DNA of 64,000 nt from a phage. Of this stretch, positions 14,105 through 63,150 are shown one piece after another. The notes under the pieces were generated by a model. The model had not been told where the DNA came from. It ran no database searches and was given only the letters and a program-made list of their open reading frames with translations. The stretch lies in sequence record PZ386973.1. The stretch is one strand, 5' to 3'. Positions within the stretch are counted from its first letter, which is position 1; each line of letters opens with the position of its first letter. Made by a program: the position numbers and the translations under genes.

Positions 14105-14526
14105 TTTCTCAACAAATTAATCGCAAATACTGAAGTGGGGTGGCAACTTCCACTTTCACGCTGCGCTGCTGCCTCATTATACCGCACAAATCCTTGAGGA
14201 TGGCCGCTAAGCCAGATTTGCTCACCTAATGCTTCATATACTAGCTCATACTAGATGCAATATAACTTACAGAATCACGTCTCGGTAGTTTTTCACTCCT
14301 CCCATCTCACTTCACAACCACCTCATACTAGGTTGCTTCGAGGCCTTACCAGGGTTCCTATGGGACGCAGATCGCTAAGTATTCTATTAACTATTTGTTT
14401 AAAAACTAACACGTAACAGTTAAAACAACCCTTAATGGGGCAGCCTAACTGTTCCGTATCGCGGATTGTAAACAAGAAAAATTAGCAAAATCAATTTTTA
14501 CTAATGTCTCTCAATTCAATATAAAT

Positions 14527-14555
14527 ATTATATCAAGATTTTGGGCATCCTGCAA
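14527..14555 (-). promoter_or_regulatory. sigma70-type promoter (-35 TTGCAG, -10 TATAAT)
   Basis: Reverse complement TTGCAG-17 nt-TATAAT; about 400 nt upstream of the 955-aa gene. Confidence 0.4.
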
Positions 14556-14649
14556 GTAAAATTTTCCGGATGGTGCTATCATTGGTCTTGAGTACGGATA
14601 AAACCGAGCCAAAATGACTCGGTAATCAGAGTTCAGCTAATAAAAATCA

Positions 14650-31207: not shown

Positions 31208-32029
31208 ATGGGTAAATTACAAAAACAAATACTACCATATATAGATTATATTCGAGAAATTATAGAGTATAATCCTTATACCGGTAAATTATTTTATAAG
31301 CCTAATAAATACAAGAATAAAACTTGGCACACCCTATATGCTGGGAGAGAAATATGTAGTAAGAACTCTGATGGGTACATCAGGGTTAGTTTGCTATTAG
31401 ATAATAAACCCACAATTATTTATGGACACCGAATAGCGTGGTTGCTCCATTATGGTGAAGAGCCGCCTTATATGATCGACCATATAAATACCATACCGTG
31501 GGATAACAGAATTATTAATCTAAGAGAGACAAATTTTAAGTTAAATAGGATTAATACTAGTAAAACCGTAGGTGTAGAACTCCTCCCCGAGGGTTTTGTG
31601 TATAGCATTACATTAGGTGGAAAGTTTTTCGTATCTCCTGGCTTCACCACTTTCGAACAAGCTAAAGTAGAAAGAGAAAAACTAGTAAATGGTTTATGTA
31701 ATGCAGAAATTGGGAAGCAGACCAATATTCTAATAGACGATGTTAGAGATTTACCTGAAATGTCCATTATTTGTCGTACAGTTATAGGTGCGCTGGAACT
31801 ATCAGATGTGTTTAGTTTTACAGGATCCTATTTATTTATGGACTCAGATTTAGGAGATCCAGAGGTACAAGGAAAAGATTTATTAGATCATATACTATCA
31901 TTAGGTCAAAGACCCCTAAAAGTGATTCTAGTAACATCTAATCCTGTTGACGCAGAGTACATGAGAGGTACTCTTACGTCTTATGGATACCGAGAAAATC
32001 CCAATAGATTAGAATATGATCTATTTTAA
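31208..32029 (+). CDS. HNH homing-endonuclease-like protein
   Basis: HNH motif GHRIAWLLHYGEEPPYMIDHINTIPWDNRIINL; 273 aa. Confidence 0.7.
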   Translation: MGKLQKQILPYIDYIREIIEYNPYTGKLFYKPNKYKNKTWHTLYAGREICSKNSDGYIRVSLLLDNKPTIIYGHRIAWLLHYGEEPPYMIDHINTIPWDNRIINLRETNFKLNRINTSKTVGVELLPEGFVYSITLGGKFFVSPGFTTFEQAKVEREKLVNGLCNAEIGKQTNILIDDVRDLPEMSIICRTVIGALELSDVFSFTGSYLFMDSDLGDPEVQGKDLLDHILSLGQRPLKVILVTSNPVDAEYMRGTLTSYGYRENPNRLEYDLF

Positions 32030-32041
32030 GGAGTAAAAAGA

Positions 32042-32491
32042 ATGAAGGCAGCTTTGCTTTTAGTAGCTGCCCTTACCTTTAGCTTTAGTAGTCAGGCATC
32101 GCACGATGCAAAAGAAATAGATTGCATTGCTAAAAATATCTATTTCGAAAGTCGTGGTGAGGGCATAAAGGGAATGACGGCGATTGCACACGTTACTAAA
32201 AACCGTGTAAACTCCGGTAAATTCCCAGATTCCTACTGTAAAGTAGTATATCAGTCTAACCAGTTCTCTTGGGTATCTAAGAGACCAAAAGTTGATAAAA
32301 CTGATGAGGCTTGGCAAACCGCCAAGAATTTAGCTAGAGTGATATACTACGTTGATTTACCACAAGATCCTACACATGGAGCTTTATACTTCCATAGTGG
32401 TAAAGATAAACCGTACTGGACAAAGAAGTTTAAGAAAACAACTAAGATTAAGGGACATACATTCTATAAACCTGTTGCCACTAAAACTTAA
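32042..32491 (+). CDS. SleB/CwlJ-like cell-wall hydrolase with signal peptide
   Basis: N-terminal signal peptide; motif NIYFESRGEGIKGMTAIAHVTKNRV typical of the SleB hydrolase domain. Confidence 0.7.
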   Translation: MKAALLLVAALTFSFSSQASHDAKEIDCIAKNIYFESRGEGIKGMTAIAHVTKNRVNSGKFPDSYCKVVYQSNQFSWVSKRPKVDKTDEAWQTAKNLARVIYYVDLPQDPTHGALYFHSGKDKPYWTKKFKKTTKIKGHTFYKPVATKT

Positions 32492-32499
32492 AAATTTAC

Positions 32500-32528
32500 T
32501 TGCTTAAATACTTAAATTTCCGTATAAT
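32500..32528 (+). promoter_or_regulatory. sigma70-type promoter
   Basis: TTGCTT-17 nt-TATAAT. Confidence 0.5.
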
Positions 32529-32559
32529 ACTTCCATAAATTAATGAGAGGAAGCGAAAT

Positions 32560-32730
32560 ATGAAATCAGTTGTAATTATTGGTGTTAACACTCGCGGTAT
32601 TCGTACTACGAAAACTGTTAAAACTTCTAACATTGCTGAAATCACTACGAACCCTAAAAAGTTTGATTTCGCCAAAGTCTCAGCAGTTATGACAGAACAA
32701 TCTTTTAACCAAGCATTGGGGATGAAATAA
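32560..32730 (+). CDS. hypothetical small protein
   Basis: 56-codon ORF not in the supplied track (below 60 aa); stop overlaps the next start (TAATG). Confidence 0.3.
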   Translation: MKSVVIIGVNTRGIRTTKTVKTSNIAEITTNPKKFDFAKVSAVMTEQSFNQALGMK

Positions 32731-33164
32731 TGGGTACGAACATGATTCGTGTACTACGAGAGTTGATTGAAGATGCTCGTAAACGTGGAGATACTGTATC
32801 GGTTAAGCACCTAAGTACGATTCTAGGTGACTTGCAACGTATTAACAAGGATTGCATAACTAAGCTGGAATTTACTAACTGGCTGAAATCCCAGTTCAAG
32901 GCAATTGAGAATACACAGACTGCTGCTGAAAAAGCAAATGTCGAATATATTCCTGATGATGAATATCTAGATCTTTTAGCAGGTTTAGAGTATGAATACG
33001 CTTTGCAACAGCTGACTGAAACCGAAATTCGTAAATACTTTGCAGAACTAGTTAAATTAAACCCAGGTATTACCAAAGCCCTACTAATGAAAACTATTAA
33101 GGCAGAGTTCCCAGGGCGTTATGATGGTAAAACAACTGCTTTGATTGCTAGTGAATTTTTCTAA
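32730..33164 (+). CDS. hypothetical protein
   Basis: 144-aa ORF. Confidence 0.45.
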   Translation: MGTNMIRVLRELIEDARKRGDTVSVKHLSTILGDLQRINKDCITKLEFTNWLKSQFKAIENTQTAAEKANVEYIPDDEYLDLLAGLEYEYALQQLTETEIRKYFAELVKLNPGITKALLMKTIKAEFPGRYDGKTTALIASEFF

Positions 33165-33172
33165 AAATTCAT

Positions 33173-33201
33173 TTGCTAAATGCTTATAAATTCTGTATAA
33201 T
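33173..33201 (+). promoter_or_regulatory. sigma70-type promoter reading into an ORF-free region
   Basis: TTGCTA-17 nt-TATAAT; no ORF of 60 aa or more for about 900 bp downstream. Confidence 0.5.
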
Positions 33202-34013
33202 ATATTCATAAATTAGAGAACAGCGAGCCGATTACGCTGAGTGCAGAATCCCAACCGGAGCGCATTGAATAGAGTCGGTGGGTTAGTTGTAAAACTAGTA
33301 CACAGGGGGCGGCAATCCCGGTTAGTGGCTAGAACGTGTAAAATGGGGCGTCTGAAACCTCTCCCTTAAACTCTTCTCTAATCTATAAATAGTGGGGTGT
33401 GGAAATCACTTATGTAGTAACACTGCCGTCCTAAGTTAATTGGTAGACTTCTGCACGCGGAGATTATATCTCCAGATGCGGAAAGTGCAGGTTCGAATCC
33501 TGCGGTCGGTAAGAACTGGATAACTGGTGCTTTTAACGTAAAAGCTTCCGAGGTTAGTTGCGCACTGCCTAAACCACGCGGTAGTTGGTTCCAGGCTAAC
33601 CAACCCGTCTGCTGAATAGTTTTATTACGATTTAGCTATGTCCAGGCTAAAGAAGAACTTTAGAAGGTATTCTAGGATAGTGAAGTTCTTTCTCCATATC
33701 GGAGTAGTTTTTCAGGCTATCCACAAAGTGGGAAATGCTGACATGAGAGATGTCACTAATGGTGCACAATAGCACAGGTAATTCGCGATAACTCCTGTTG
33801 AGTAGCAGCAAAAGGCGGGAAGTCATGACCCCAAGCCTAACCGAGTCCTCAATATACCGCAGGACATAACCACTAAGTCACCCTGACTTAAACTGGAAAA
33901 TAATAGACGTTACTGTATTTTGTCTTGAAATACTTAATGAGTGAGACTTATGACTCTCCCGGTATCGTCTGTATTTTTAAGAATTTTTACGAGAGTTCTT
34001 AAAAATACTTAAA

Positions 34014-34088
34014 CGGGGTGTAGTCTAAGGGAGAGGCAGGAGTCTTCTAAATTCCTTTATGCAGGTTCGAATCCTGTCACCTCGGCCA
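34014..34088 (+). tRNA. tRNA-Arg (anticodon TCT), read by eye
   Basis: Acceptor CGGGGTG/CACCTCG, T-arm GCAGG-TTCGAAT-CCTGT, anticodon loop CTTCTAA, encoded CCA. Confidence 0.55.
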
Positions 34089-34122
34089 ATTTTATTAACT
34101 GTAACTAAAACAAAGGAAATAT

Positions 34123-35070
34123 ATGTTTGCTACTAAAAATATGAAAGAACTGACTTCTGAGCAGAAAGTAATTCGTACTATTAAACGTTGGGGTATTGGT
34201 GCTGTAGTTGGTTTAGCAGGTTTAATCCTAGCTTTTAATTCATATACTATTGTTTCTGATGGTACGGTTAAAACCCAAACATTCCTGGGTAAAGTAGACC
34301 CTAATCCAGTATTGCCAGGTTTCCATCTTGTAAACCCGTTTGCATCTTTCGATACTTTTAGTACAAAAGATATTGCTGTAAAATTAGATAAACTTCAGGT
34401 TCCTAGTCAGGATAAGTTTAAATCCACTGTTGACCTGACTGTTATGTTGCAGTTTGATGGTTCTAAGGCACCTATTAACCGTATTAATGCGGGTACTCAG
34501 GATCAGGCACTAGACAAGTATGTAACTGAAAAATTACTATCTACTATTCGTGAGTTTGGTAAGTCTGTACCTAAAGCACAAGATTTGTTTGATGCTAAAA
34601 TTCAGGCTCAATTGCAAACTGCAATTCAACAGGAAGTTGAAGAGTATGCACGCCCATATGGTTACACAGTTAAGCAGGTGTTCCTTCAGGATATTACTTT
34701 GCCACCGGTAATCATGGAACAGGTACAGAATACCAAAGTTCGTGAAGAGCAAGTTAATGCTGCGAAAGCTGAACTGGCTCGTGTTGAACAGGAAGCACAG
34801 CAAAAAGTTAAACAAGCAGAAGCAGATCGTGAAGCTCGCAACAACCAAGCTATTGCTAATGAACGTGACGCAGATGCTAAACTGTACGCAGCTAAGAAAG
34901 AAGCTGAAGCTAACGCCGCATTGCAACGTACCATTACTCCTGAGATGATTCGCTGGAAGCAACTGGAAGTTGAAATGATTCGTGCTCAGAAATACCAAGG
35001 TGGTGTACCACAGACGGTAGTTGGTACTGGTTATGATGGCCAGATGATTATGGATATGCGTAACAAGTAA
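34123..35070 (+). CDS. SPFH/band-7 (prohibitin-like) membrane protein
   Basis: N-terminal transmembrane helix, band-7-like core, C-terminal coiled coil; 315 aa. Confidence 0.6.
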   Translation: MFATKNMKELTSEQKVIRTIKRWGIGAVVGLAGLILAFNSYTIVSDGTVKTQTFLGKVDPNPVLPGFHLVNPFASFDTFSTKDIAVKLDKLQVPSQDKFKSTVDLTVMLQFDGSKAPINRINAGTQDQALDKYVTEKLLSTIREFGKSVPKAQDLFDAKIQAQLQTAIQQEVEEYARPYGYTVKQVFLQDITLPPVIMEQVQNTKVREEQVNAAKAELARVEQEAQQKVKQAEADREARNNQAIANERDADAKLYAAKKEAEANAALQRTITPEMIRWKQLEVEMIRAQKYQGGVPQTVVGTGYDGQMIMDMRNK

Positions 35071-37720: not shown

Positions 37721-37798
37721 GGTTCTCAAGCTCATATGGTATGAGCACCCGGCTCATAACCGGAAGGTACGTAGGTTCGAATCCTCGGGGAGCCACCA
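37721..37798 (+). tRNA. tRNA with CAT anticodon (Met or Ile), read by eye
   Basis: Acceptor GGTTCTC/GGGAGCC, D-arm GCTC...GAGC, anticodon loop CTCATAA; T-stem weak. Confidence 0.45.
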
Positions 37799-39435: not shown

Positions 39436-39513
39436 CATTCCTAGAGTGTTACTGGACAGCATGTCGGTCTCCAAAACCGTACGGTCTAGGTTCGAGTCCT
39501 AGTGGGTTTGCCA
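39436..39513 (+). tRNA. tRNA-like element with Trp-type anticodon arm (CCA); acceptor stem not resolved
   Basis: Anticodon arm TCGGT-CTCCAAA-ACCGT and T-arm CTAGG-TTCGAGT-CCTAG present; 5' acceptor pairing not found by eye. Confidence 0.35.
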
Positions 39514-40264: not shown

Positions 40265-40366
40265 AATTCTGTGTAGAGTTAAGTAAACCGGTAGCCAACC
40301 AGCTATCATTGCTGACATCGAATTCAGCCACAGATACCATTTTCATTAATAACTGAGGAAACAAGC

Positions 40367-41265: not shown

Positions 41266-41657
41266 CAAAATTTCAGTGCAGAACACGGAGCTAGCAATTC
41301 GGAAGTGCTGACTCATGATAAGCTGCCTATGTACTTGCGAAGCGGTCGTGTCCAAGACTCGGACTCTTGCACTGAAAACAATCAAACATTCTAGCGTGGT
41401 TGATGGGGAAACCAGCTTGGCTAGGGCAGAAGCTCGTTCGATTCGAGTGGAAGAATGGTTCTCGTAAGTCCGCACAAGTGATAACAGGTTCGAGTCCTGT
41501 CTAGAATGACACTATAAAGTTTACTTATTGAGTAGGTTCCGATAGATCGGCGGGTCTATTCTGGCATTTAAGAGAGGTCTCGCAAACTTCTTTGTCAGCC
41601 GTGGGGTTCATAGCCTCCAGGTGGCCTACACAATAAGTAAATTTATTAAAAATTCAT

Positions 41658-41965: not shown

Positions 41966-42043
41966 TGCGGGTTAGATCTCTGGTAGAGATCGCTAGTCTC
42001 ATAAGCTAGAAAGAGGTAGGTTCGATTCCTGCACCCGCTTCCA
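41966..42043 (+). tRNA. tRNA with CAT anticodon (Met or Ile); 1-72 mismatch
   Basis: Acceptor TGCGGGT/ACCCGCT with T-T at 1-72, anticodon stem-loop CTAGT-CTCATAA-GCTAG, T-arm GTAGG-TTCGATT-CCTGC. Confidence 0.5.
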
Positions 42044-42063
42044 TTTTAATAGAGGATTTCGAA

Positions 42064-42231
42064 ATGAAAGTATTTCGATTAGTAGTAAGTGATAAACGTT
42101 TAGGTAAGAATACATCAAAATCCTTACTCGCTCATTACGGTAAAAATTGGGATGAAGTAATGGTAGAGTTTAGTACTAATCACCCTTACCTGAAAGTTCA
42201 CTCTATTAAAGAAGTATACAATGGTTACTAA
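42064..42231 (+). CDS. hypothetical small protein
   Basis: 55-codon ORF with an AGAGGA ribosome-binding site between two tRNAs. Confidence 0.3.
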   Translation: MKVFRLVVSDKRLGKNTSKSLLAHYGKNWDEVMVEFSTNHPYLKVHSIKEVYNGY

Positions 42232-42232
42232 T

Positions 42233-42311
42233 AGATCGCTAGCTCAATAGGTTTAGTAGCATCCGACTTTTAATCGGAAGGTTCTGGGTTCAAGTCCCAG
42301 GCGATCTACCA
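42233..42311 (+). tRNA. tRNA-Lys (anticodon TTT)
   Basis: Perfect acceptor AGATCGC/GCGATCT, anticodon stem-loop TCCGA-CTTTTAA-TCGGA, T-arm CTGGG-TTCAAGT-CCCAG. Confidence 0.7.
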
Positions 42312-42329
42312 ATTTCAAGAAAAACGCAG

Positions 42330-42358
42330 TTGCTTGATGCTTAATTTCTTGTTATAAT
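42330..42358 (+). promoter_or_regulatory. sigma70-type promoter
   Basis: TTGCTT-17 nt-TATAAT. Confidence 0.5.
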
Positions 42359-42596
42359 ATTTATATAAATTGATGAGGATTTCTCCTCATCATAGTTCAC
42401 TAAGGTATTAGCTCGACCTAGGACTGGCTGCCAAAAAGCACGATCCCTACGATTCGGGAGAAGTTCTAGATTAGTCCACTAGATTCAGCGGCAACTGAAT
42501 AGTGTATCGGGTTTGCGAGATGACGTAGTTCCTTCCGCTCGAAGCGAAGGTGCTGTAGTTACGCCGAGCTAATAGCCTTAGTAAATTAAAGAATTT

Positions 42597-42675
42597 GGGG
42601 GATGGGTCTGCTAGGAGTGGACACCTCGCTTGCACCGAGGACATCAGAACGATTCGAATTCGTTATCCTCCACCA
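42597..42675 (+). tRNA. tRNA-Ala (anticodon TGC)
   Basis: Acceptor GGGGGAT/ATCCTCC, anticodon stem-loop CCTCG-CTTGCAC-CGAGG, T-arm AACGA-TTCGAAT-TCGTT. Confidence 0.6.
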
Positions 42676-42680
42676 AATAC

Positions 42681-42757
42681 GCGTGATTGATGGAATGGGC
42701 ATACATACCGTCCTTAGAAGTCGGGTTTTGAGGGTTCGAATCCCTTGTCACGCACCA
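42681..42757 (+). tRNA. tRNA, anticodon read as TAG, short variable arm
   Basis: Acceptor GCGTGAT/GTCACGC, T-arm GAGGG-TTCGAAT-CCCTT; identity needs software. Confidence 0.5.
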
Positions 42758-42869
42758 AATTTGATGGTCAGAGTAAATTAAACCTACTATCTCGGTTGAG
42801 CTGTTTTAATGGGTTCGAATCCCAGCGAGGCGTAACTGCCTGGCGTGATAGAGGCATCATCTTATTATT

Positions 42870-42960
42870 GGAAGAGCAAATCGAATTGGCGACGAAAACC
42901 GCTTGGAAAGTGGCTGACTGGTAAAACGGCTTGAGAGTTCAAATCTCTTCTCTTCCGCCA
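42870..42960 (+). tRNA. tRNA-Ser (anticodon GGA), long variable arm
   Basis: Perfect acceptor GGAAGAG/CTCTTCC, anticodon loop TTGGAAA, T-arm GAGAG-TTCAAAT-CTCTT. Confidence 0.55.
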
Positions 42961-42972
42961 AACAATTTATAT

Positions 42973-43067
42973 GGTAGGTCAATCCAAAGGCTGGCGCTGG
43001 ACTCCGACTTGAAATCGGTTGATCGTAGTGATACGGTGTAAGGGTTCGATCCCCTTACCTACCTCCA
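42973..43067 (+). tRNA. tRNA-Ser (anticodon TGA), long variable arm
   Basis: Perfect acceptor GGTAGGT/ACCTACC, anticodon loop CTTGAAA, T-arm AAGGG-TTCGATC-CCCTT. Confidence 0.55.
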
Positions 43068-43432
43068 AATCTTGGAATATGCCGGAATTAGTAGACGGGA
43101 CTGCCGAATAGGTTTACTAGGAACATCCACTCCTAGAAATATACCTTAAAGGCGGTTGAGATAAATGGTCTATCTCGTGAAGGTTCAAGTCCTTCTATTC
43201 CTTGATACATCAATGGCTCAAAGTGTAACGGTGCTATTTGATGCTCTTGGAAAGACTTTCCCGACAGGCGTTCGGGGGTAAGCTTCTGAGGCTAGAATAG
43301 AAGAGTTTCTGAGAGCCGCCACAATTGAAAATTCGTACTCGTCTTGAGCTGCGTGCAATAGGAGATAACTTGATTAGTATTCTAGAACATGCTAATTGAG
43401 GATGGTTTCGCTAACCCTGCGAGTTTTCAATT

Positions 43433-43509
43433 GTGGCTATATCATAATTGGTTAATGATCCTGATTGTGAATCAGGCCTATGTGGATTCGAATTCCACTA
43501 GCCACCCCA
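43433..43509 (+). tRNA. tRNA-His (anticodon GTG)
   Basis: Perfect acceptor GTGGCTA/TAGCCAC, anticodon stem-loop CCTGA-TTGTGAA-TCAGG, T-arm GTGGA-TTCGAAT-TCCAC. Confidence 0.7.
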
Positions 43510-43534
43510 AATTAACTTAAATAGGAAATAAAAT

Positions 43535-62068: not shown

Positions 62069-62085
62069 ACATTAACAAAATCTTC

Positions 62086-62115
62086 TTGACAACTCATTGC
62101 GGCACATGTTATAAT
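62086..62115 (+). promoter_or_regulatory. sigma70-type promoter reading into the non-coding repeat region
   Basis: Consensus TTGACA-18 nt-TATAAT with no ORF downstream. Confidence 0.45.
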
Positions 62116-62154
62116 AATCTCATAGATTAAAAACAACTCTTGTTTTGAACTCTA

Positions 62155-62253
62155 GGGGCGATGATTATTACACTTAGTATTACGTCTATACGTTGCGACA
62201 GCACGAGTATAGATCTAATTACTAAGTCTTCCGTAATACTCACGCGCCCCACG
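62155..62253. repeat. large imperfect palindrome
   Basis: GGGGCG...CGCCCC flanks with nested inverted repeats (CTTAGTATTACG/CGTAATACT, TCTATAC/GTATAGA). Confidence 0.5.
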
Positions 62254-62467
62254 AGTAAGCTCTCATGAAATGGGGGGACTATTTACTTTTAAAATATATG
62301 AAAATATTTAAAGGCAATATCTGTGTTCAAGATGGTACACCTGTTGCCGCTCTTCTGCTAGGATGGCACAACACTTTCTTCTAGACTCCTAAGTTTATCA
62401 CGAAATACCACACTTCTAGTGGGCGGTTCTCCTAAGTTTCTAGGAACATATACTAGGCGGTTAATAC

Positions 62468-62508
62468 AGGGCGGTTATAGGGAGGGCGGTTATAGGGAGG
62501 GCGGTTAT
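62468..62508. repeat. tandem direct repeats of GGGCGGTTAT(AGGGA), three copies
   Basis: GGGCGGTTATAGGGAGGGCGGTTATAGGGAGGGCGGTTAT read directly; a further GGCGGTT copy at 62456. Confidence 0.7.
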
Positions 62509-62550
62509 TTCTAGAAGACATTTTTTGAAAACACATTTCCAGAAATTACT

Positions 62551-63150
62551 GTCGGATTTGCACACTGCATTTCTAGAAATTTATGGTCGGATTTGCACAA
62601 ACGCCTAAGTTTTTAGGAACATATAATCTCTTGAAAATAGCAGCATTATTTCGGGCCGAAGGCCCATGATTGCCTGAGTTTTTAGAGCCACAGAAATTTT
62701 CCCTTGTCAAGCTATTTTGCCACATTTAGCTAATAAAATTTTACTTTTTCTGCACCTATCTCAAATCTTCTCCAATTATCTCAACTCTTCCCCAAAATCC
62801 CGGCAAATCTGGTGCTCCGCACCAACCATGCGCCCACATCCCTCTAGTCCCCAAAATTTCTTCGTTCTCTCAACTTCTCTCCAAACCTATACAATCACAC
62901 ACCCTCTAATCGAAGTCATAAAAATCTTGTCGGATTCGCACATCTTAATCCTAGAAAAACCGTGTCGGATTTGCACATACCCCACAGGATTCGAACGCAG
63001 TTCGTGATTGCTGGAGTTTTTGGGAAAATTCATTGTCGGATTCGCACACTATAAAAATTTTTAGGGTCGGATTTGCACACTACCAAAAATTGTCGGATTC
63101 GCACATACACGCCAGCACGTAACCCGTGGAGCAAATGTCGGATTTGCACA
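62551..63150 (+). repeat. iteron array: eight direct copies of GTCGGATT(T/C)GCACA
   Basis: Copies at 62551, 62586, 62929, 62964, 63035, 63066, 63092 and 63137, all same orientation, irregular spacing. Confidence 0.8.

What the first reader, a model, noticed from the sequence alone, without database searches (positions are those of the whole stretch)
33205..34013. ORF-free 800-bp segment downstream of a strong promoter with tRNA-like fragments
There is no ORF of 60 aa or more on either strand between the promoter at 33173 and the tRNA-Arg at 34014. The segment contains T-arm-like motifs (GGTTCGAATCC at about 33489) without a complete cloverleaf that I could fold by eye. It may encode stable non-coding RNA, degenerate tRNAs, or tRNAs with unusual features.
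Basis: seen in the sequence. Interest (0 to 1): 0.55.

Follow-up and report, generated by a model that had tools for sequence, protein, structure and literature searches.

The report
T5 RNAX: large structured phage RNA
The ORF-free 0.8 kb is the gene for RNAX, a long-annotated T5-family stable RNA of unknown function, which comparison of relatives shows to be a conserved, highly folded non-coding RNA with a tRNA look-alike inside it.

Summary
33165-34122 has no ORF of 60 aa or more on either strand. It starts at a near-consensus promoter and ends at tRNA-Arg(UCU). The window is a T5-like phage (Tequintavirus). The segment is 95-96% identical to 'rnaX / RNAX, stable RNA with unknown functions', annotated in the T5, BF23 and phage 5 GenBank records between promoter P16-17 and tRNA-Arg, so the entity is already known.

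New here is evidence that it is a real structured RNA. Two conserved domains recur across Tequintavirus, Epseptimavirus, Pantoea phage AAS21 and Klebsiella Sugarlandvirus:
- Domain I, 33388-33583: 15 of 33 pairs changed on both sides.
- Domain II, 33726-33898: 24 of 39 pairs.
- 92-98% of cells stay paired, against 25-52% in slid controls.

The T-arm motif belongs to a complete cloverleaf (33425-33511; Rfam tRNA 42 bits). Acceptor, D and T arms are conserved. The anticodon arm is non-decoding and varies between phages; here it carries a 14-15 nt extension, a rare cassette otherwise seen in Klebsiella phages.

No Rfam family other than tRNA matches. Function is unknown. I infer a stable trans-acting RNA released by RNase P, closest in kind to GOLLD/ROOL.

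The parts
33173..33201 (+). Sigma-70 type early promoter (-35 TTGCTA, 17-bp spacer, -10 TATAAT). It is the homologue of T5 'promoter P16-17'.
   Evidence: 10 of 12 consensus matches. Annotated as a promoter in AJ604531 and AY543070. Conserved in all genera examined.
33214..34013 (+). RNAX (rnaX) as delimited by homology to the GenBank misc_RNA feature. The 5' end follows the AJ604531 annotation. The 3' end is the base before tRNA-Arg, which is the inferred RNase P cut.
   Evidence: 95.7% identity to AJ604531 rnaX over the full length. T5 and BF23 records carry the same annotation.
33221..33239 (+). Leader hairpin CAGCG-AGCCGAUUA-CGCUG near the 5' end.
   Evidence: Conserved in Tequintavirus, Epseptimavirus, Klebsiella and Pantoea phages. 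The stem never varies, so there is no covariation. It is absent from T5 itself.
33240..33387 (+). Variable, mosaic 5' domain. Conserved junction strings (UGAAUAGAGUCGGUG, GUAAAA...UAAACUCUUCUCUAAUUUAUA) separate swappable hairpin modules.
   Evidence: alignment. About 33220-33368 is missing from T5, L019 and L021-L023. The fold is no more stable than shuffled sequence (z = +0.84).
33388..33583 (+). Domain I. Contains a putative closing helix GUGG 33392-95 / CCAC 33574-77, the tRNA-like element, hairpin c (33529-33545) and hairpin d (33552-33569).
   Evidence: Covariance model R2 gives 189.5 bits in the window and finds the domain in all 30 relatives searched. On alignment A8, 91.9% of cells pair against 25-47% in slid controls, and 15 of 33 pairs changed on both sides.
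33425..33511 (+). tRNA-like element (87 nt): acceptor 33425-31 / 33504-10, D arm 33434-49, T arm 33487-33503, discriminator A33511, no encoded CCA. The anticodon arm is replaced by an extended arm: outer stem 33451-55 / 33477-81 and an inner hairpin at about 33459-73.
   Evidence: Rfam tRNA 42 bits. Fold z = -3.13. Parse and pair tables over 21 variants. ARAGORN -i calls it 'Trp(cca) with a 14-nt intron'. The cassette is shared with 39 Klebsiella phages and only 2 Salmonella phages.
33584..33725 (+). Middle region with local hairpins (GUUGGUU/AACCAAC, GAAGAACUU/AAGUUCUUU enclosing UAGAA-GGUA-UUCUA, CUCC-AUAUC-GGAG). It is replaced by other modules in several Epseptimavirus phages.
   Evidence: alignments. 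Partial homologue in Klebsiella phage DevonBitter with compensatory changes, read by eye. Not tested statistically.
33726..33898 (+). Domain II. Putative closing helix P1 (GUGG 33728-31 / CCAC 33870-73), six hairpins P2-P7, then P8 (33876-88) and UAAACUGGAA. Two loops are palindromic: GAGUCAUGACC (about 33819-33830) in all 24 true homologues aligned, and UCGCGA (33783-88).
   Evidence: Model R1 gives 216 bits in the window, 83 bits in Pantoea AAS21 and 16-17 bits in Klebsiella phages. On A5, 98.1% of cells pair against 31-52% in slid controls, and 24 of 39 pairs changed on both sides. A2 gives the same result on a plain MAFFT alignment. Loop palindromes.
33899..33970 (+). Tail module, probably a three-way junction (closing AGACG/CGUCU, two hairpins, conserved linker CUUAAU). 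Relatives replace it with different sequences of the same apparent topology.
   Evidence: Read from alignment A2 and from L009/L035. Inference by eye, not tested statistically.
33971..34008 (+). 17-bp terminal hairpin with a UACG loop, 5 nt before the tRNA-Arg 5' end. Not followed by a U run.
   Evidence: MFE. helix 9: 100% of cells paired, with G-U to A-U and G-C changes on one side. Phage L015 has compensatory C-G changes. Conserved in Klebsiella phages.
34014..34088 (+). tRNA-Arg(UCU), co-transcribed. Its 5' processing site defines the RNAX 3' end.

Best explanation
The segment is the gene for RNAX, a roughly 0.8-kb non-coding RNA of T5-like phages.

Shown here:
- It is homologous to the annotated rnaX of T5, BF23 and phage 5.
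- It has no conserved ORF.
- Two domains (I: 33388-33583; II: 33726-33898) and a terminal hairpin are kept as base-paired structures through compensatory changes across at least four Demerecviridae lineages.
- Many pairs are G-U, so the structure reads on the plus strand, the one the promoter drives.
- Domain I carries a tRNA-shaped module. Its acceptor, D and T arms, together with U8, A14, G18, G19 and A21, are conserved. Its anticodon arm cannot decode: it has a 6-nt loop, a GAGA tetraloop, or, as here, an extended arm.

Inferred:
- The early promoter P16-17 transcribes RNAX, tRNA-Arg and the SPFH gene as one unit, since no intrinsic terminator lies between them.
- RNase P cutting at the 5' end of tRNA-Arg (between 34013 and 34014) releases RNAX.
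- The 17-bp 3' hairpin and the 5' leader hairpin protect the ends, which would explain why it was recorded as a 'stable RNA'.

Function, by inference only. RNAX acts in trans as a folded RNA scaffold or decoy during early infection. The tRNA-like module would engage tRNA-binding factors, such as processing or modification enzymes or tRNA-directed host defences. The invariant loops of domain II would provide a second, sequence-specific interface, either to a partner or to another RNAX copy. I put about 0.9 on 'structured non-coding RNA identical to RNAX', about 0.7 on release by RNase P at tRNA-Arg, and about 0.25 on the scaffold/decoy role.
For: - Identity. 95-96% identity over the whole length to records where the feature is annotated rnaX.
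- Coding potential. No ORF of 60 aa or more. The small ORFs have no PHROG family and are not kept between types.
- Covariation.
  - A2 (plain MAFFT): 97.9% of cells paired against 32-46% in slid controls; 16 pairs changed on both sides against 5.6 +/- 1.3 in shuffles.
  - A5: 24 of 39 pairs changed on both sides.
  - A8: 15 of 33 pairs changed on both sides.
- Strand. Predominant G-U pairs such as columns 82-92, 356-369, 357-368 and 359-366 would be A-C mismatches on the minus strand.
- Distant homologues. Found by covariance models in Pantoea and Klebsiella phages under ORFs that look mis-annotated.
- Conservation. About equal to the flanking protein genes: domain II 87-88% against endolysin 85-87% and SPFH 85-86% between genera.
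- tRNA-like module. Rfam 42 bits; arm-by-arm covariation.
- Transcription. Promoter match and no plus-strand terminator.
- Fold stability. The 3' 502 nt has z = -2.78.
Against: - No expression or end-mapping data were available. 'Stable RNA' rests on a GenBank note whose source paper I could not read.
- The long-range closing helices (GUGG/CCAC) never vary, so they are unproven. The two changes in A5 helix 1 come from spurious 43-nt hits.
- A5 and A8 were fitted to the model's structure and so lean towards it.
- The RNA is mosaic and parts are dispensable:
  - T5 lacks 33220-33368.
  - Two Epseptimavirus phages replace the tRNA-like module with a plain hairpin.
  - One metagenomic relative lacks the D arm.
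- The 5' 220 nt folds no better than shuffled sequence. The minus strand also folds well (z = -2.51).
- Nothing here shows what RNAX binds, or whether the internal tRNA-like module is itself cut by RNase P.
Confidence: 0.75

Rival explanations
1. A precursor that is chopped into several small stable RNAs rather than one 0.8-kb RNA. RNase P and RNase E would cut at the internal tRNA-like module (33424/25 and 33511/12) and at the A/U-rich 'hairpin + UAAAC' junctions (33361, 33577, 33891). The pieces would resemble the other small stable RNAs of the T5 tRNA region.
For: - A complete 7-bp acceptor stem and T arm are present.
- The same records annotate seven other 73-172 nt stable or tRNA-like RNAs in this tRNA region, and all have homologues in the window.
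- The evolution is modular: blocks are swapped between phages at conserved junctions, and the T5 insertion is flanked by a duplicated AGUCACCUUGAC[U/A]UAAACUGGAA.
Against: - The depositors, who separated the other small RNAs, annotated RNAX as a single 719-785 nt species.
- The module has a G1-U72 or G1-A72 top pair, usually a U5-U68 mismatch, and no encoded CCA. From general knowledge these weaken RNase P recognition.
- The putative GUGG/CCAC helices would enclose whole domains.
Confidence: 0.3
2. Evolutionary debris: a decayed tRNA gene plus spacer that serves only as the leader of the tRNA-Arg/SPFH operon.
For: - The tRNA-like element is a pseudo-tRNA by every annotator's call: tRNA-Pseudo, OTHER, Sec, Pro, Ser or Undet.
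- Parts are deleted or swapped in relatives.
- The 5' part shows no excess folding.
Against: - Compensatory changes are far above both controls in two domains.
- The invariant 11-nt loop GAGUCAUGACC persists in all genera while its stem covaries.
- Conservation equals that of the neighbouring protein genes.
- Homologues persist in genera whose flanking genes differ.
Confidence: 0.05
3. A cluster of small protein-coding genes, as many GenBank records annotate the region ('hypothetical protein' x2-6).
For: Hypothetical proteins are annotated across the homologous stretch in several records, for example vB_Sen_I1, DevonBitter, Sugarland and AAS21.
Against: - In the window nothing reaches 60 aa, and the two longest ORFs are antisense to the promoter.
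- The ORFs differ between closely related phages, and T5 loses the 59-aa one.
- No PHROG family matches.
- The annotated ORFs of AAS21 and DevonBitter lie on top of covariance-model hits to domain II.
- The substitutions are pairwise compensatory.
Confidence: 0.03
4. A functional but unusual tRNA: tRNA-Trp(CCA) interrupted by a 14-nt intervening hairpin. In relatives it would be a suppressor-type tRNA, with UCA in Epseptimavirus and UAA in T5.
For: - Removing 14 nt leaves the loop CUCCAGA.
- The Rfam tRNA score is above the gathering threshold.
- Tertiary-interaction nucleotides are kept.
Against: - The window already has a normal tRNA-Trp at 39437-39513.
- The insert is a symmetric 3x3 internal loop plus hairpin, not a bulge-helix-bulge. 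From general knowledge it is also far too short for a group I intron.
- In the Klebsiella version position 33 would be C.
- Relatives have 6-nt loops or a GAGA tetraloop, two phages have no tRNA-like module at all, and the 1:72 pair is never Watson-Crick.
Confidence: 0.04
5. A DNA-level element such as protein-binding palindromes, a recombination hot spot or a homing-endonuclease target, rather than an RNA.
For: - The conserved strings GTCATGAC and TCGCGA/CGCGCG/CTCGAG are DNA palindromes.
- HNH endonuclease ORFs are inserted just upstream in some relatives.
- The region is strongly mosaic.
Against: - Helices rely on G-U pairs that exist only in plus-strand RNA.
- Covariation keeps pairing, not sequence.
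- The palindromes sit in hairpin loops of covarying stems.
Confidence: 0.05

Closest known systems
RNAX (rnaX) of bacteriophages T5, BF23 and phage 5. GenBank AY543070/NC_005859, AJ604530 and AJ604531: 'stable RNA with unknown functions'.
   Same: Same locus (promoter P16-17, then RNAX, then tRNA-Arg, then the SPFH/band-7 ORF). 95.7% identity to phage 5 rnaX over the full length. Same domains.
   Different: - The window carries a different tRNA-like cassette: 87 nt with an extended arm, against 72 nt in T5.
- That cassette is otherwise seen in Klebsiella Sugarlandvirus phages and in two Salmonella phages.
- T5 itself lacks about 150 nt of the 5' domain and has an ~82-nt hairpin insertion after domain II.
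GOLLD and ROOL, large ornate RNAs of phages and prophages.
   Same: According to PMC12286853, these RNAs:
- are encoded in phages, often near tRNA islands;
- measure about 600 to more than 800 nt;
[quoted passage not shown]
- sometimes carry tRNAs inside the GOLLD linker;
- have no known function and use kissing loops in assembly.

RNAX sits at the head of the T5 tRNA island and measures 0.68-1.27 kb. It has a variable 5' part and a conserved 3' domain, embeds a tRNA-like unit and has invariant self-complementary loops.
   Different: - No sequence or structure match: no GOLLD or ROOL hit in the Rfam scan even at E <= 10.
- The helices and motifs are different.
- Oligomerisation of RNAX is untested.
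- Hosts are Enterobacterales phages of one family only.
tRNA-like modules inside longer non-coding RNAs: bacterial Y RNA YrlA, and MALAT1/NEAT1 mascRNA-type 3' processing.
   Same: - A T arm, D arm and acceptor-like stem embedded in a larger RNA.
- YrlA is modified by tRNA enzymes, and the M. smegmatis form is cut by RNase P and CCA-tailed.
- One Y RNA has a 6-nt 'anticodon' loop (PMC4201824).
[quoted passage not shown]
   Different: - No Rfam Y-RNA hit.
- In RNAX the RNA chain enters and leaves through the acceptor stem rather than the anticodon side.
- I saw no Ro60 gene in the annotated neighbourhoods. I did not check this systematically.
The other small stable and tRNA-like RNAs of the T5 tRNA region (RNA I, RNAIII, RNAIV, RNA 2H, RNA1, RNA2, RNA3), and, from my own memory, the T4 tRNA-cluster stable RNAs (species 1 and 2, rnaC/rnaD).
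   Same: Phage-encoded, co-transcribed with tRNAs, recorded as stable, function unknown. All seven T5-type RNAs have homologues in this window.
   Different: They are 73-172 nt, whereas RNAX is 5-10 times longer and multi-domain. The T4 comparison was not tested here.

Membership tests
T5-family RNAX (rnaX) | Lies between early promoter P16-17 and tRNA-Arg(UCU), upstream of the SPFH/band-7 ORF. | tested here: met
   same gene order; Band_7 Pfam hit on 34123-35067.
T5-family RNAX (rnaX) | Sequence homology to the deposited rnaX features. | tested here: met
   95.7% identity over the full length to AJ604531 rnaX. Domain II is 94.3% identical to BF23 rnaX and 82.2% to T5 rnaX.
T5-family RNAX (rnaX) | Accumulates as a stable RNA in infected cells. 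| not testable with these tools
   Only the GenBank note is available. No paper on RNAX was found in the searchable library.
Canonical tRNA (Rfam RF00005) | Cloverleaf scoring above the family threshold. | tested here: met
   42 bits against a gathering score of 29 at 33425-33511.
Canonical tRNA (Rfam RF00005) | 5-bp anticodon stem with a 7-nt loop (U33, anticodon, purine 37). | tested here: not met
   The window has a 21-nt 'loop' containing a hairpin. Relatives have 6-nt loops or a GAGA tetraloop. Default ARAGORN rejects it.
Canonical tRNA (Rfam RF00005) | CCA end and aminoacylation. | not testable with these tools
   No CCA is encoded (AAGA follows the discriminator). The neighbouring tRNA-Arg does encode CCA.
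Intron-containing tRNA | A recognisable splicing signal (group I intron or bulge-helix-bulge) and conservation of the spliced anticodon loop in relatives. | tested here: not met
   ARAGORN -i proposes Trp(cca) with a 14-nt intron. The fold is a symmetric internal loop plus hairpin. Relatives lack both the insert and a CCA anticodon.
GOLLD / ROOL large ornate RNAs | Match to the family covariance model. | tested here: not met
   No hit in the gathering scan of the window or at E <= 10 over 33100-34150.
GOLLD / ROOL large ornate RNAs | Phage-encoded, next to a tRNA island, several hundred nt long, extensive covarying structure. | tested here: met
   Family description from PMC12286853. This is a likeness of kind, not membership.
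GOLLD / ROOL large ornate RNAs | RNA-only homo-oligomer. | not testable with these tools
   Only a hint: the palindromic loop GUCAUGAC in every true homologue aligned, and the P4-loop palindromes UCGCGA, CGCGCG and CUCGAG.
tmRNA | tRNA-like domain split around a tag reading frame. | tested here: not met
   ARAGORN -m finds nothing. No Rfam hit.
Bacterial Y RNA (YrlA) | Match to the family model, with the Ro-binding stem formed by the RNA ends. | tested here: not met
   No Rfam hit at E <= 10. The chain enters and leaves the tRNA-like module through the acceptor stem, unlike the YrlA layout as I recall it; one search did not show that layout.

The most novel reading that the evidence does not exclude
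RNAX is an unclassified family of large 'ornate' phage RNAs, a functional counterpart of GOLLD/ROOL in the model phage T5. It would self-associate through its conserved self-complementary loops: GUCAUGAC, and UCGCGA with its variants CGCGCG and CUCGAG. Its tRNA-shaped domain would hold or decoy tRNA-binding factors, or tRNAs, during early infection.
Probability: 0.15. Interest if true: 0.85.

Novelty: already known. Interest (0 to 1): 0.55.

Why it matters
RNAX has sat in the T5 reference annotation since about 2004 as a 'stable RNA with unknown functions'. It is absent from Rfam. Many newer genome records cover it with hypothetical ORFs or with contradictory tRNA calls (Pro, Ser, Sec, Gln, OTHER).

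Showing that it is a conserved, multi-domain folded RNA has three consequences:

1. It corrects those annotations.
2. It adds a large structured RNA family in a genetically tractable phage-host pair (T5 and E. coli).
3. It offers a practical system for asking what large phage RNAs next to tRNA islands do. That question is still open for GOLLD and ROOL. It touches current work on phage tRNAs and tRNA-targeting host defences.

Tried and rejected
- Rfam at gathering threshold and at E <= 10 returned only the two tRNA hits. The others (Hrs13, mir-3167, SCARNA7 and the like) are far below threshold and were dismissed.
- Default ARAGORN and tmRNA mode found nothing inside the segment. Very relaxed ARAGORN settings gave mutually inconsistent calls, which I treated as noise.
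- PHROGs gave no family for the four small ORFs.
- Pfam gave no hit for the upstream 144-aa protein. The 'YqeY / tRNA amidotransferase' label that relatives carry is therefore unverified for this allele, and I dropped the idea of a linked tRNA-binding protein. Klebsiella phages also lack that gene.
- A global RNAalifold run on the mosaic full-length alignment gave an unreliable fold, so I switched to per-domain analysis.
- I suspected that domains I and II are paralogues because they share the motif order AGUGGG...ACUNAUG...GAUAACU...AACCAC. Model R1 finds no second copy in the window at E <= 10, so this is not supported.
- I checked whether RNAX might be a CsrA-type sponge by counting GGA motifs by eye. 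There were roughly as many as a rough chance estimate, so I dropped the idea.
- Scans outside phage isolates:
  - IMG/VR added only isolate-type T5-like contigs.
  - The metagenome scan gave 11 T5-like contigs, including one 99% identical to the window.
  - GTDB genomes gave nothing for domain II, and two motif matches in MAGs that the covariance models reject.
- Literature searches found no accessible paper describing RNAX.
Full report
**1. Observation**

The window is a T5-like phage. The query 33150-34100 matches 578 phage records, almost all Demerecviridae, at up to 96% identity.

Inside 33205-34013 the longest ORFs are 59 aa and 55 aa on the minus strand and 44 aa and 42 aa on the plus strand. 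The stretch 33165-34122 is the second-longest in the window free of any ORF of 60 aa or more.

The promoter TTGCTA-17-TATAAT lies at 33173-33201 and tRNA-Arg(tct) at 34014-34088. The T-arm string GGTTCGAATCC is at 33490-33500.

**2. Identity**

GenBank AJ604531 (phage 5 tRNA gene region) annotates the homologous 785 nt as 'rnaX, RNAX, stable RNA with unknown functions', preceded by 'promoter P16-17' and followed by tRNA-Arg. The T5 reference AY543070/NC_005859 and the BF23 record AJ604530 carry the same annotation.

The same curated record lists seven further small 'stable' or 'tRNA-like' RNAs in the tRNA region. All have homologues in this window.

I found no accessible paper describing RNAX. 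Its 'stable' status therefore rests on the database note.

**3. The tRNA-like element**

The Rfam tRNA model scores 33425-33511 at 42 bits, with 20 unmodelled bases in the anticodon loop. Default ARAGORN misses it. With introns allowed it reports 'tRNA-Trp(cca), 14-nt intron at position 33'.

Across 21 distinct variants:

- The acceptor stem covaries at pairs 5-7 (U-U, A-U, U-A; C-G, U-G, U-A).
- The D stem covaries (GUAU/UUAU, AGUU/GACU, GUCU/AGAC).
- The T stem covaries (GUAGG, GCAGG, GUGGG with matching partners).
- U8, A14, G18, G19 and A21 are kept.
- The 1:72 pair is always G-U or G-A, and no CCA is encoded.

The anticodon arm is not a decoding arm in any lineage:

| Lineage | Anticodon arm |
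|---|---|
| T5 and Klebsiella Kpn13-P2 | 6-nt loop GUAACU on covarying stems |
| Epseptimavirus | 6-nt loop UUCACU/C |
| Pantoea AAS21 | GAGA tetraloop |
| Window and Sugarlandvirus | 5-bp stem, 3x3 internal loop, extra hairpin with a compensatory A-U to G-C change |

Two Epseptimavirus phages replace the whole module with a plain hairpin closed by a similar stem. One metagenomic relative lacks the D arm.

The flanks of the window's module are about 99% identical to T5-type phages, but the core is swapped. The window-type cassette occurs in only 2 Salmonella phages (phB7, Kenya-K44) and 39 Klebsiella phages. GenBank annotators call the element Pro, Ser, Sec, Gln, OTHER or Pseudo.

**4. The rest is a folded RNA**

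Alignments show conserved junction strings separating hairpins whose sequences change while pairing is kept.

| Region (window) | Alignment | Sequences | Cells paired | Slid controls | Pairs changed on both sides |
|---|---|---|---|---|---|
| 33726-34012 | A2, plain MAFFT | 25 distinct | 97.9% | 32-46% | 16 of 55 (shuffles 5.6 +/- 1.3, 0 of 500; slid 0-4) |
| Domain II, 33726-33898 | A5, fitted to model R1 | 24 distinct | 98.1% | 31-52% | 24 of 39 |
| Domain I, 33388-33583 | A8, fitted to model R2 | 30 | 91.9% | 25-47% | 15 of 33 |

A5 and A8 are model-fitted alignments and lean towards the structure. The plain MAFFT result (A2) agrees with them.

Model R1 recovers domain II from Pantoea phage AAS21 (83 bits) and from Klebsiella Sugarlandvirus phages (16-17 bits). 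In those the strings AAGUGGGA, GGAGUCAUGACC, CCGAG and CAUAACCAC are kept and the P6 stem is replaced by GUGAC/GUCAC. Model R2 recovers domain I from all 30 relatives searched.

Many pairs are G-U in most sequences. The fold therefore belongs to the plus-strand transcript, not the minus strand and not the duplex DNA.

The long-range helices that would close each domain never vary and remain hypothetical: GUGG 33392-95 with CCAC 33574-77, and GUGG 33728-31 with CCAC 33870-73. The apparent variation in helix 1 of A5 comes from spurious 43-nt hits.

Fold stability is mixed:

- The 3' 502 nt folds better than shuffled sequence (z = -2.78).
- The tRNA-like element has z = -3.13.
- The 5' 220 nt does not fold better than shuffled sequence (z = +0.84).

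**5. Architecture and variation**

The order of parts is:

1. Leader hairpin, 33221-39.
2. Variable 5' domain. About 33220-33368 is absent from T5. Some Epseptimavirus phages and the Klebsiella phages insert a further ~190-nt module before domain I.
3. Domain I, with the tRNA-like unit and two covarying hairpins.
4. Variable middle region.
5. Domain II.
6. P8 hairpin plus UAAACUGGAA.
7. Tail module, which has three different sequences but the same apparent three-way topology and a conserved CUUAAU linker (read by eye).
8. 17-bp terminal hairpin, 33971-34008.
9. tRNA-Arg.

T5 carries an ~82-nt hairpin insertion flanked by a duplicated P8 motif.

Family members range from about 680 nt to about 1270 nt in Klebsiella phage DevonBitter, where five small 'hypothetical protein' ORFs are annotated over it. 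Some relatives have HNH endonuclease or other ORFs inserted between the promoter and domain I, or between the terminal hairpin and tRNA-Arg.

Nucleotide conservation is about the same as in the flanking protein genes. Between genera, domain II is 87-88% identical, the endolysin gene 85-87% and the SPFH gene 85-86%.

**6. Coding potential**

- No ORF is conserved between types.
- The four small ORFs have no PHROG family.
- The two longest ORFs are antisense to the promoter.

**7. Mechanism**

*Shown.* This is a conserved, plus-strand, base-paired non-coding RNA gene downstream of a strong promoter, with no plus-strand terminator before tRNA-Arg.

*Inferred from established tRNA processing.* RNase P cutting at the 5' end of tRNA-Arg creates the RNAX 3' end at 34013, five bases after the terminal hairpin. 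The terminal and leader hairpins would slow exonucleolytic and 5'-end-dependent decay, which fits a 'stable RNA'.

Whether the internal tRNA-like unit is also cut is open. Its non-Watson-Crick 1:72 pair, its U5-U68 mismatch and the missing CCA argue for poor cleavage. The depositors' single-species annotation agrees.

*Function is inference only.* I favour a trans-acting scaffold or decoy. The tRNA-shaped module would present an elbow and acceptor to tRNA-binding factors. The invariant loops of domain II would form a second interface.

Those loops are self-complementary. GUCAUGAC is present in all 24 true homologues aligned (the three loop-less rows of A5 are the spurious 43-nt hits). The P4 loop keeps a GC-rich palindrome while its sequence changes: UCGCGA in 23 aligned rows, CGCGCG in T5, CUCGAG in phage 26175III, and only CGCG in three. 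This is a hint of loop-loop self-association, not a demonstration.

**8. Comparison with known families**

- Membership in RNAX is met on position and homology.
- It is not a canonical tRNA. The anticodon arm fails, so I do not file it as a tRNA.
- It is not an intron-containing tRNA, a tmRNA, a Y RNA, GOLLD or ROOL by covariance model.
- In kind it most resembles GOLLD/ROOL. Those are phage-encoded, lie next to tRNA islands and run to several hundred nt. GOLLD has a conserved 3' and variable 5' region, tRNAs sometimes sit inside it, its function is unknown, and its assemblies use kissing loops (PMC12286853).
- It also resembles RNAs that embed a tRNA-like module, such as YrlA, where one such module is cut by RNase P and CCA-tailed (PMC4201824).

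**9. Distribution**

- Domain II is found by BLAST in 415 phage records, almost all Salmonella and Escherichia phages of the T5 group, plus a few listed under other hosts. The covariance model also finds it in the Pantoea and Klebsiella phages tested.
- Domain I is found in every lineage examined.
- Nothing credible turned up in 185,579 species-representative bacterial and archaeal genomes.
- One metagenomic contig (ERZ1026892 NODE-7, 112 kb) is 99% identical to the window across the region.

**10. Verdict**

The entity is already annotated in the T5 literature record, so it is not new.

What this analysis adds is comparative evidence that RNAX is a large, multi-domain, structurally constrained RNA family across Demerecviridae. 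It is missing from Rfam and widely mis-annotated, and its tRNA-like module has a lineage-variable arm in place of an anticodon arm. Function remains unknown.

Noticed in passing
window 37721-37798: A tRNA that default ARAGORN misses but Rfam scores at 40.3 bits. Relaxed ARAGORN calls it tRNA-Met(cat). It is 100% identical to 'tRNAI2' (tRNA-Ile, CAU anticodon) in AJ604531.
   Followed up: partly
window 40267-40339, 41387-41511, 41530-41632, 42406-42577, 43071-43214, 43215-43321, 43326-43431: Homologues (85-100% identity) of seven other RNAs annotated in AJ604531 as 'stable RNA' or 'tRNA-like RNA with unknown functions': RNA3, RNA2, RNAIV, RNA 2H, RNA1, RNA I and RNAIII. They lie in the other tRNA-free, ORF-free gaps of the tRNA island, including part of the window's longest ORF-free stretch (42003-43534). 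None has an Rfam family.
   Followed up: partly
window 32730-33164: The 144-aa gene just upstream of the RNAX promoter is only 52-61% identical in protein to its counterpart in phages whose RNAX is ~96% identical in DNA. It is 84-85% identical to the T5 allele. Relatives label it 'YqeY-like / tRNA amidotransferase', but this allele has no Pfam hit at E <= 0.01. This looks like an allelic replacement next to a conserved RNA gene.
   Followed up: partly
L009 1635-2536, L016 2079-2681, L008 2025-2251 (relatives): Small 'hypothetical protein' ORFs annotated in Klebsiella and Pantoea phage records lie on top of covariance-model hits to RNAX domains I and II. They are probably annotation artefacts.
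   Followed up: partly
L010 1017-1499, L006 1016-1495, L015 1517-1999 (relatives): An ORF of about 160 aa, annotated as an HNH endonuclease in JLBYU43, is inserted between the P16-17-type promoter and domain I, replacing the RNAX 5' domain. A different 169-aa ORF sits between the RNAX terminal hairpin and tRNA-Arg in several Epseptimavirus phages.
   Followed up: no
window 31208-32029: A 273-aa ORF upstream of the endolysin contains an HNH-like string (YGHRIAW...IDHINTIPWDNRIINL). It may be another free-standing homing endonuclease. Not analysed.
   Followed up: no
window 62069-62716 and 14105-14649: Two further stretches of 648 bp and 545 bp lack any ORF of 60 aa or more on either strand. Neither gave an Rfam hit at gathering threshold. 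Not examined.
   Followed up: no
window 33162-33215 versus 32489-32543: The RNAX promoter region is about 82% identical to a second promoter-like copy upstream of the 56-aa DUF7616 gene. That copy corresponds to T5 'promoter P-D/E 33' and 'repeat c'. Repeated promoter cassettes could mediate the deletions known in this region.
   Followed up: no
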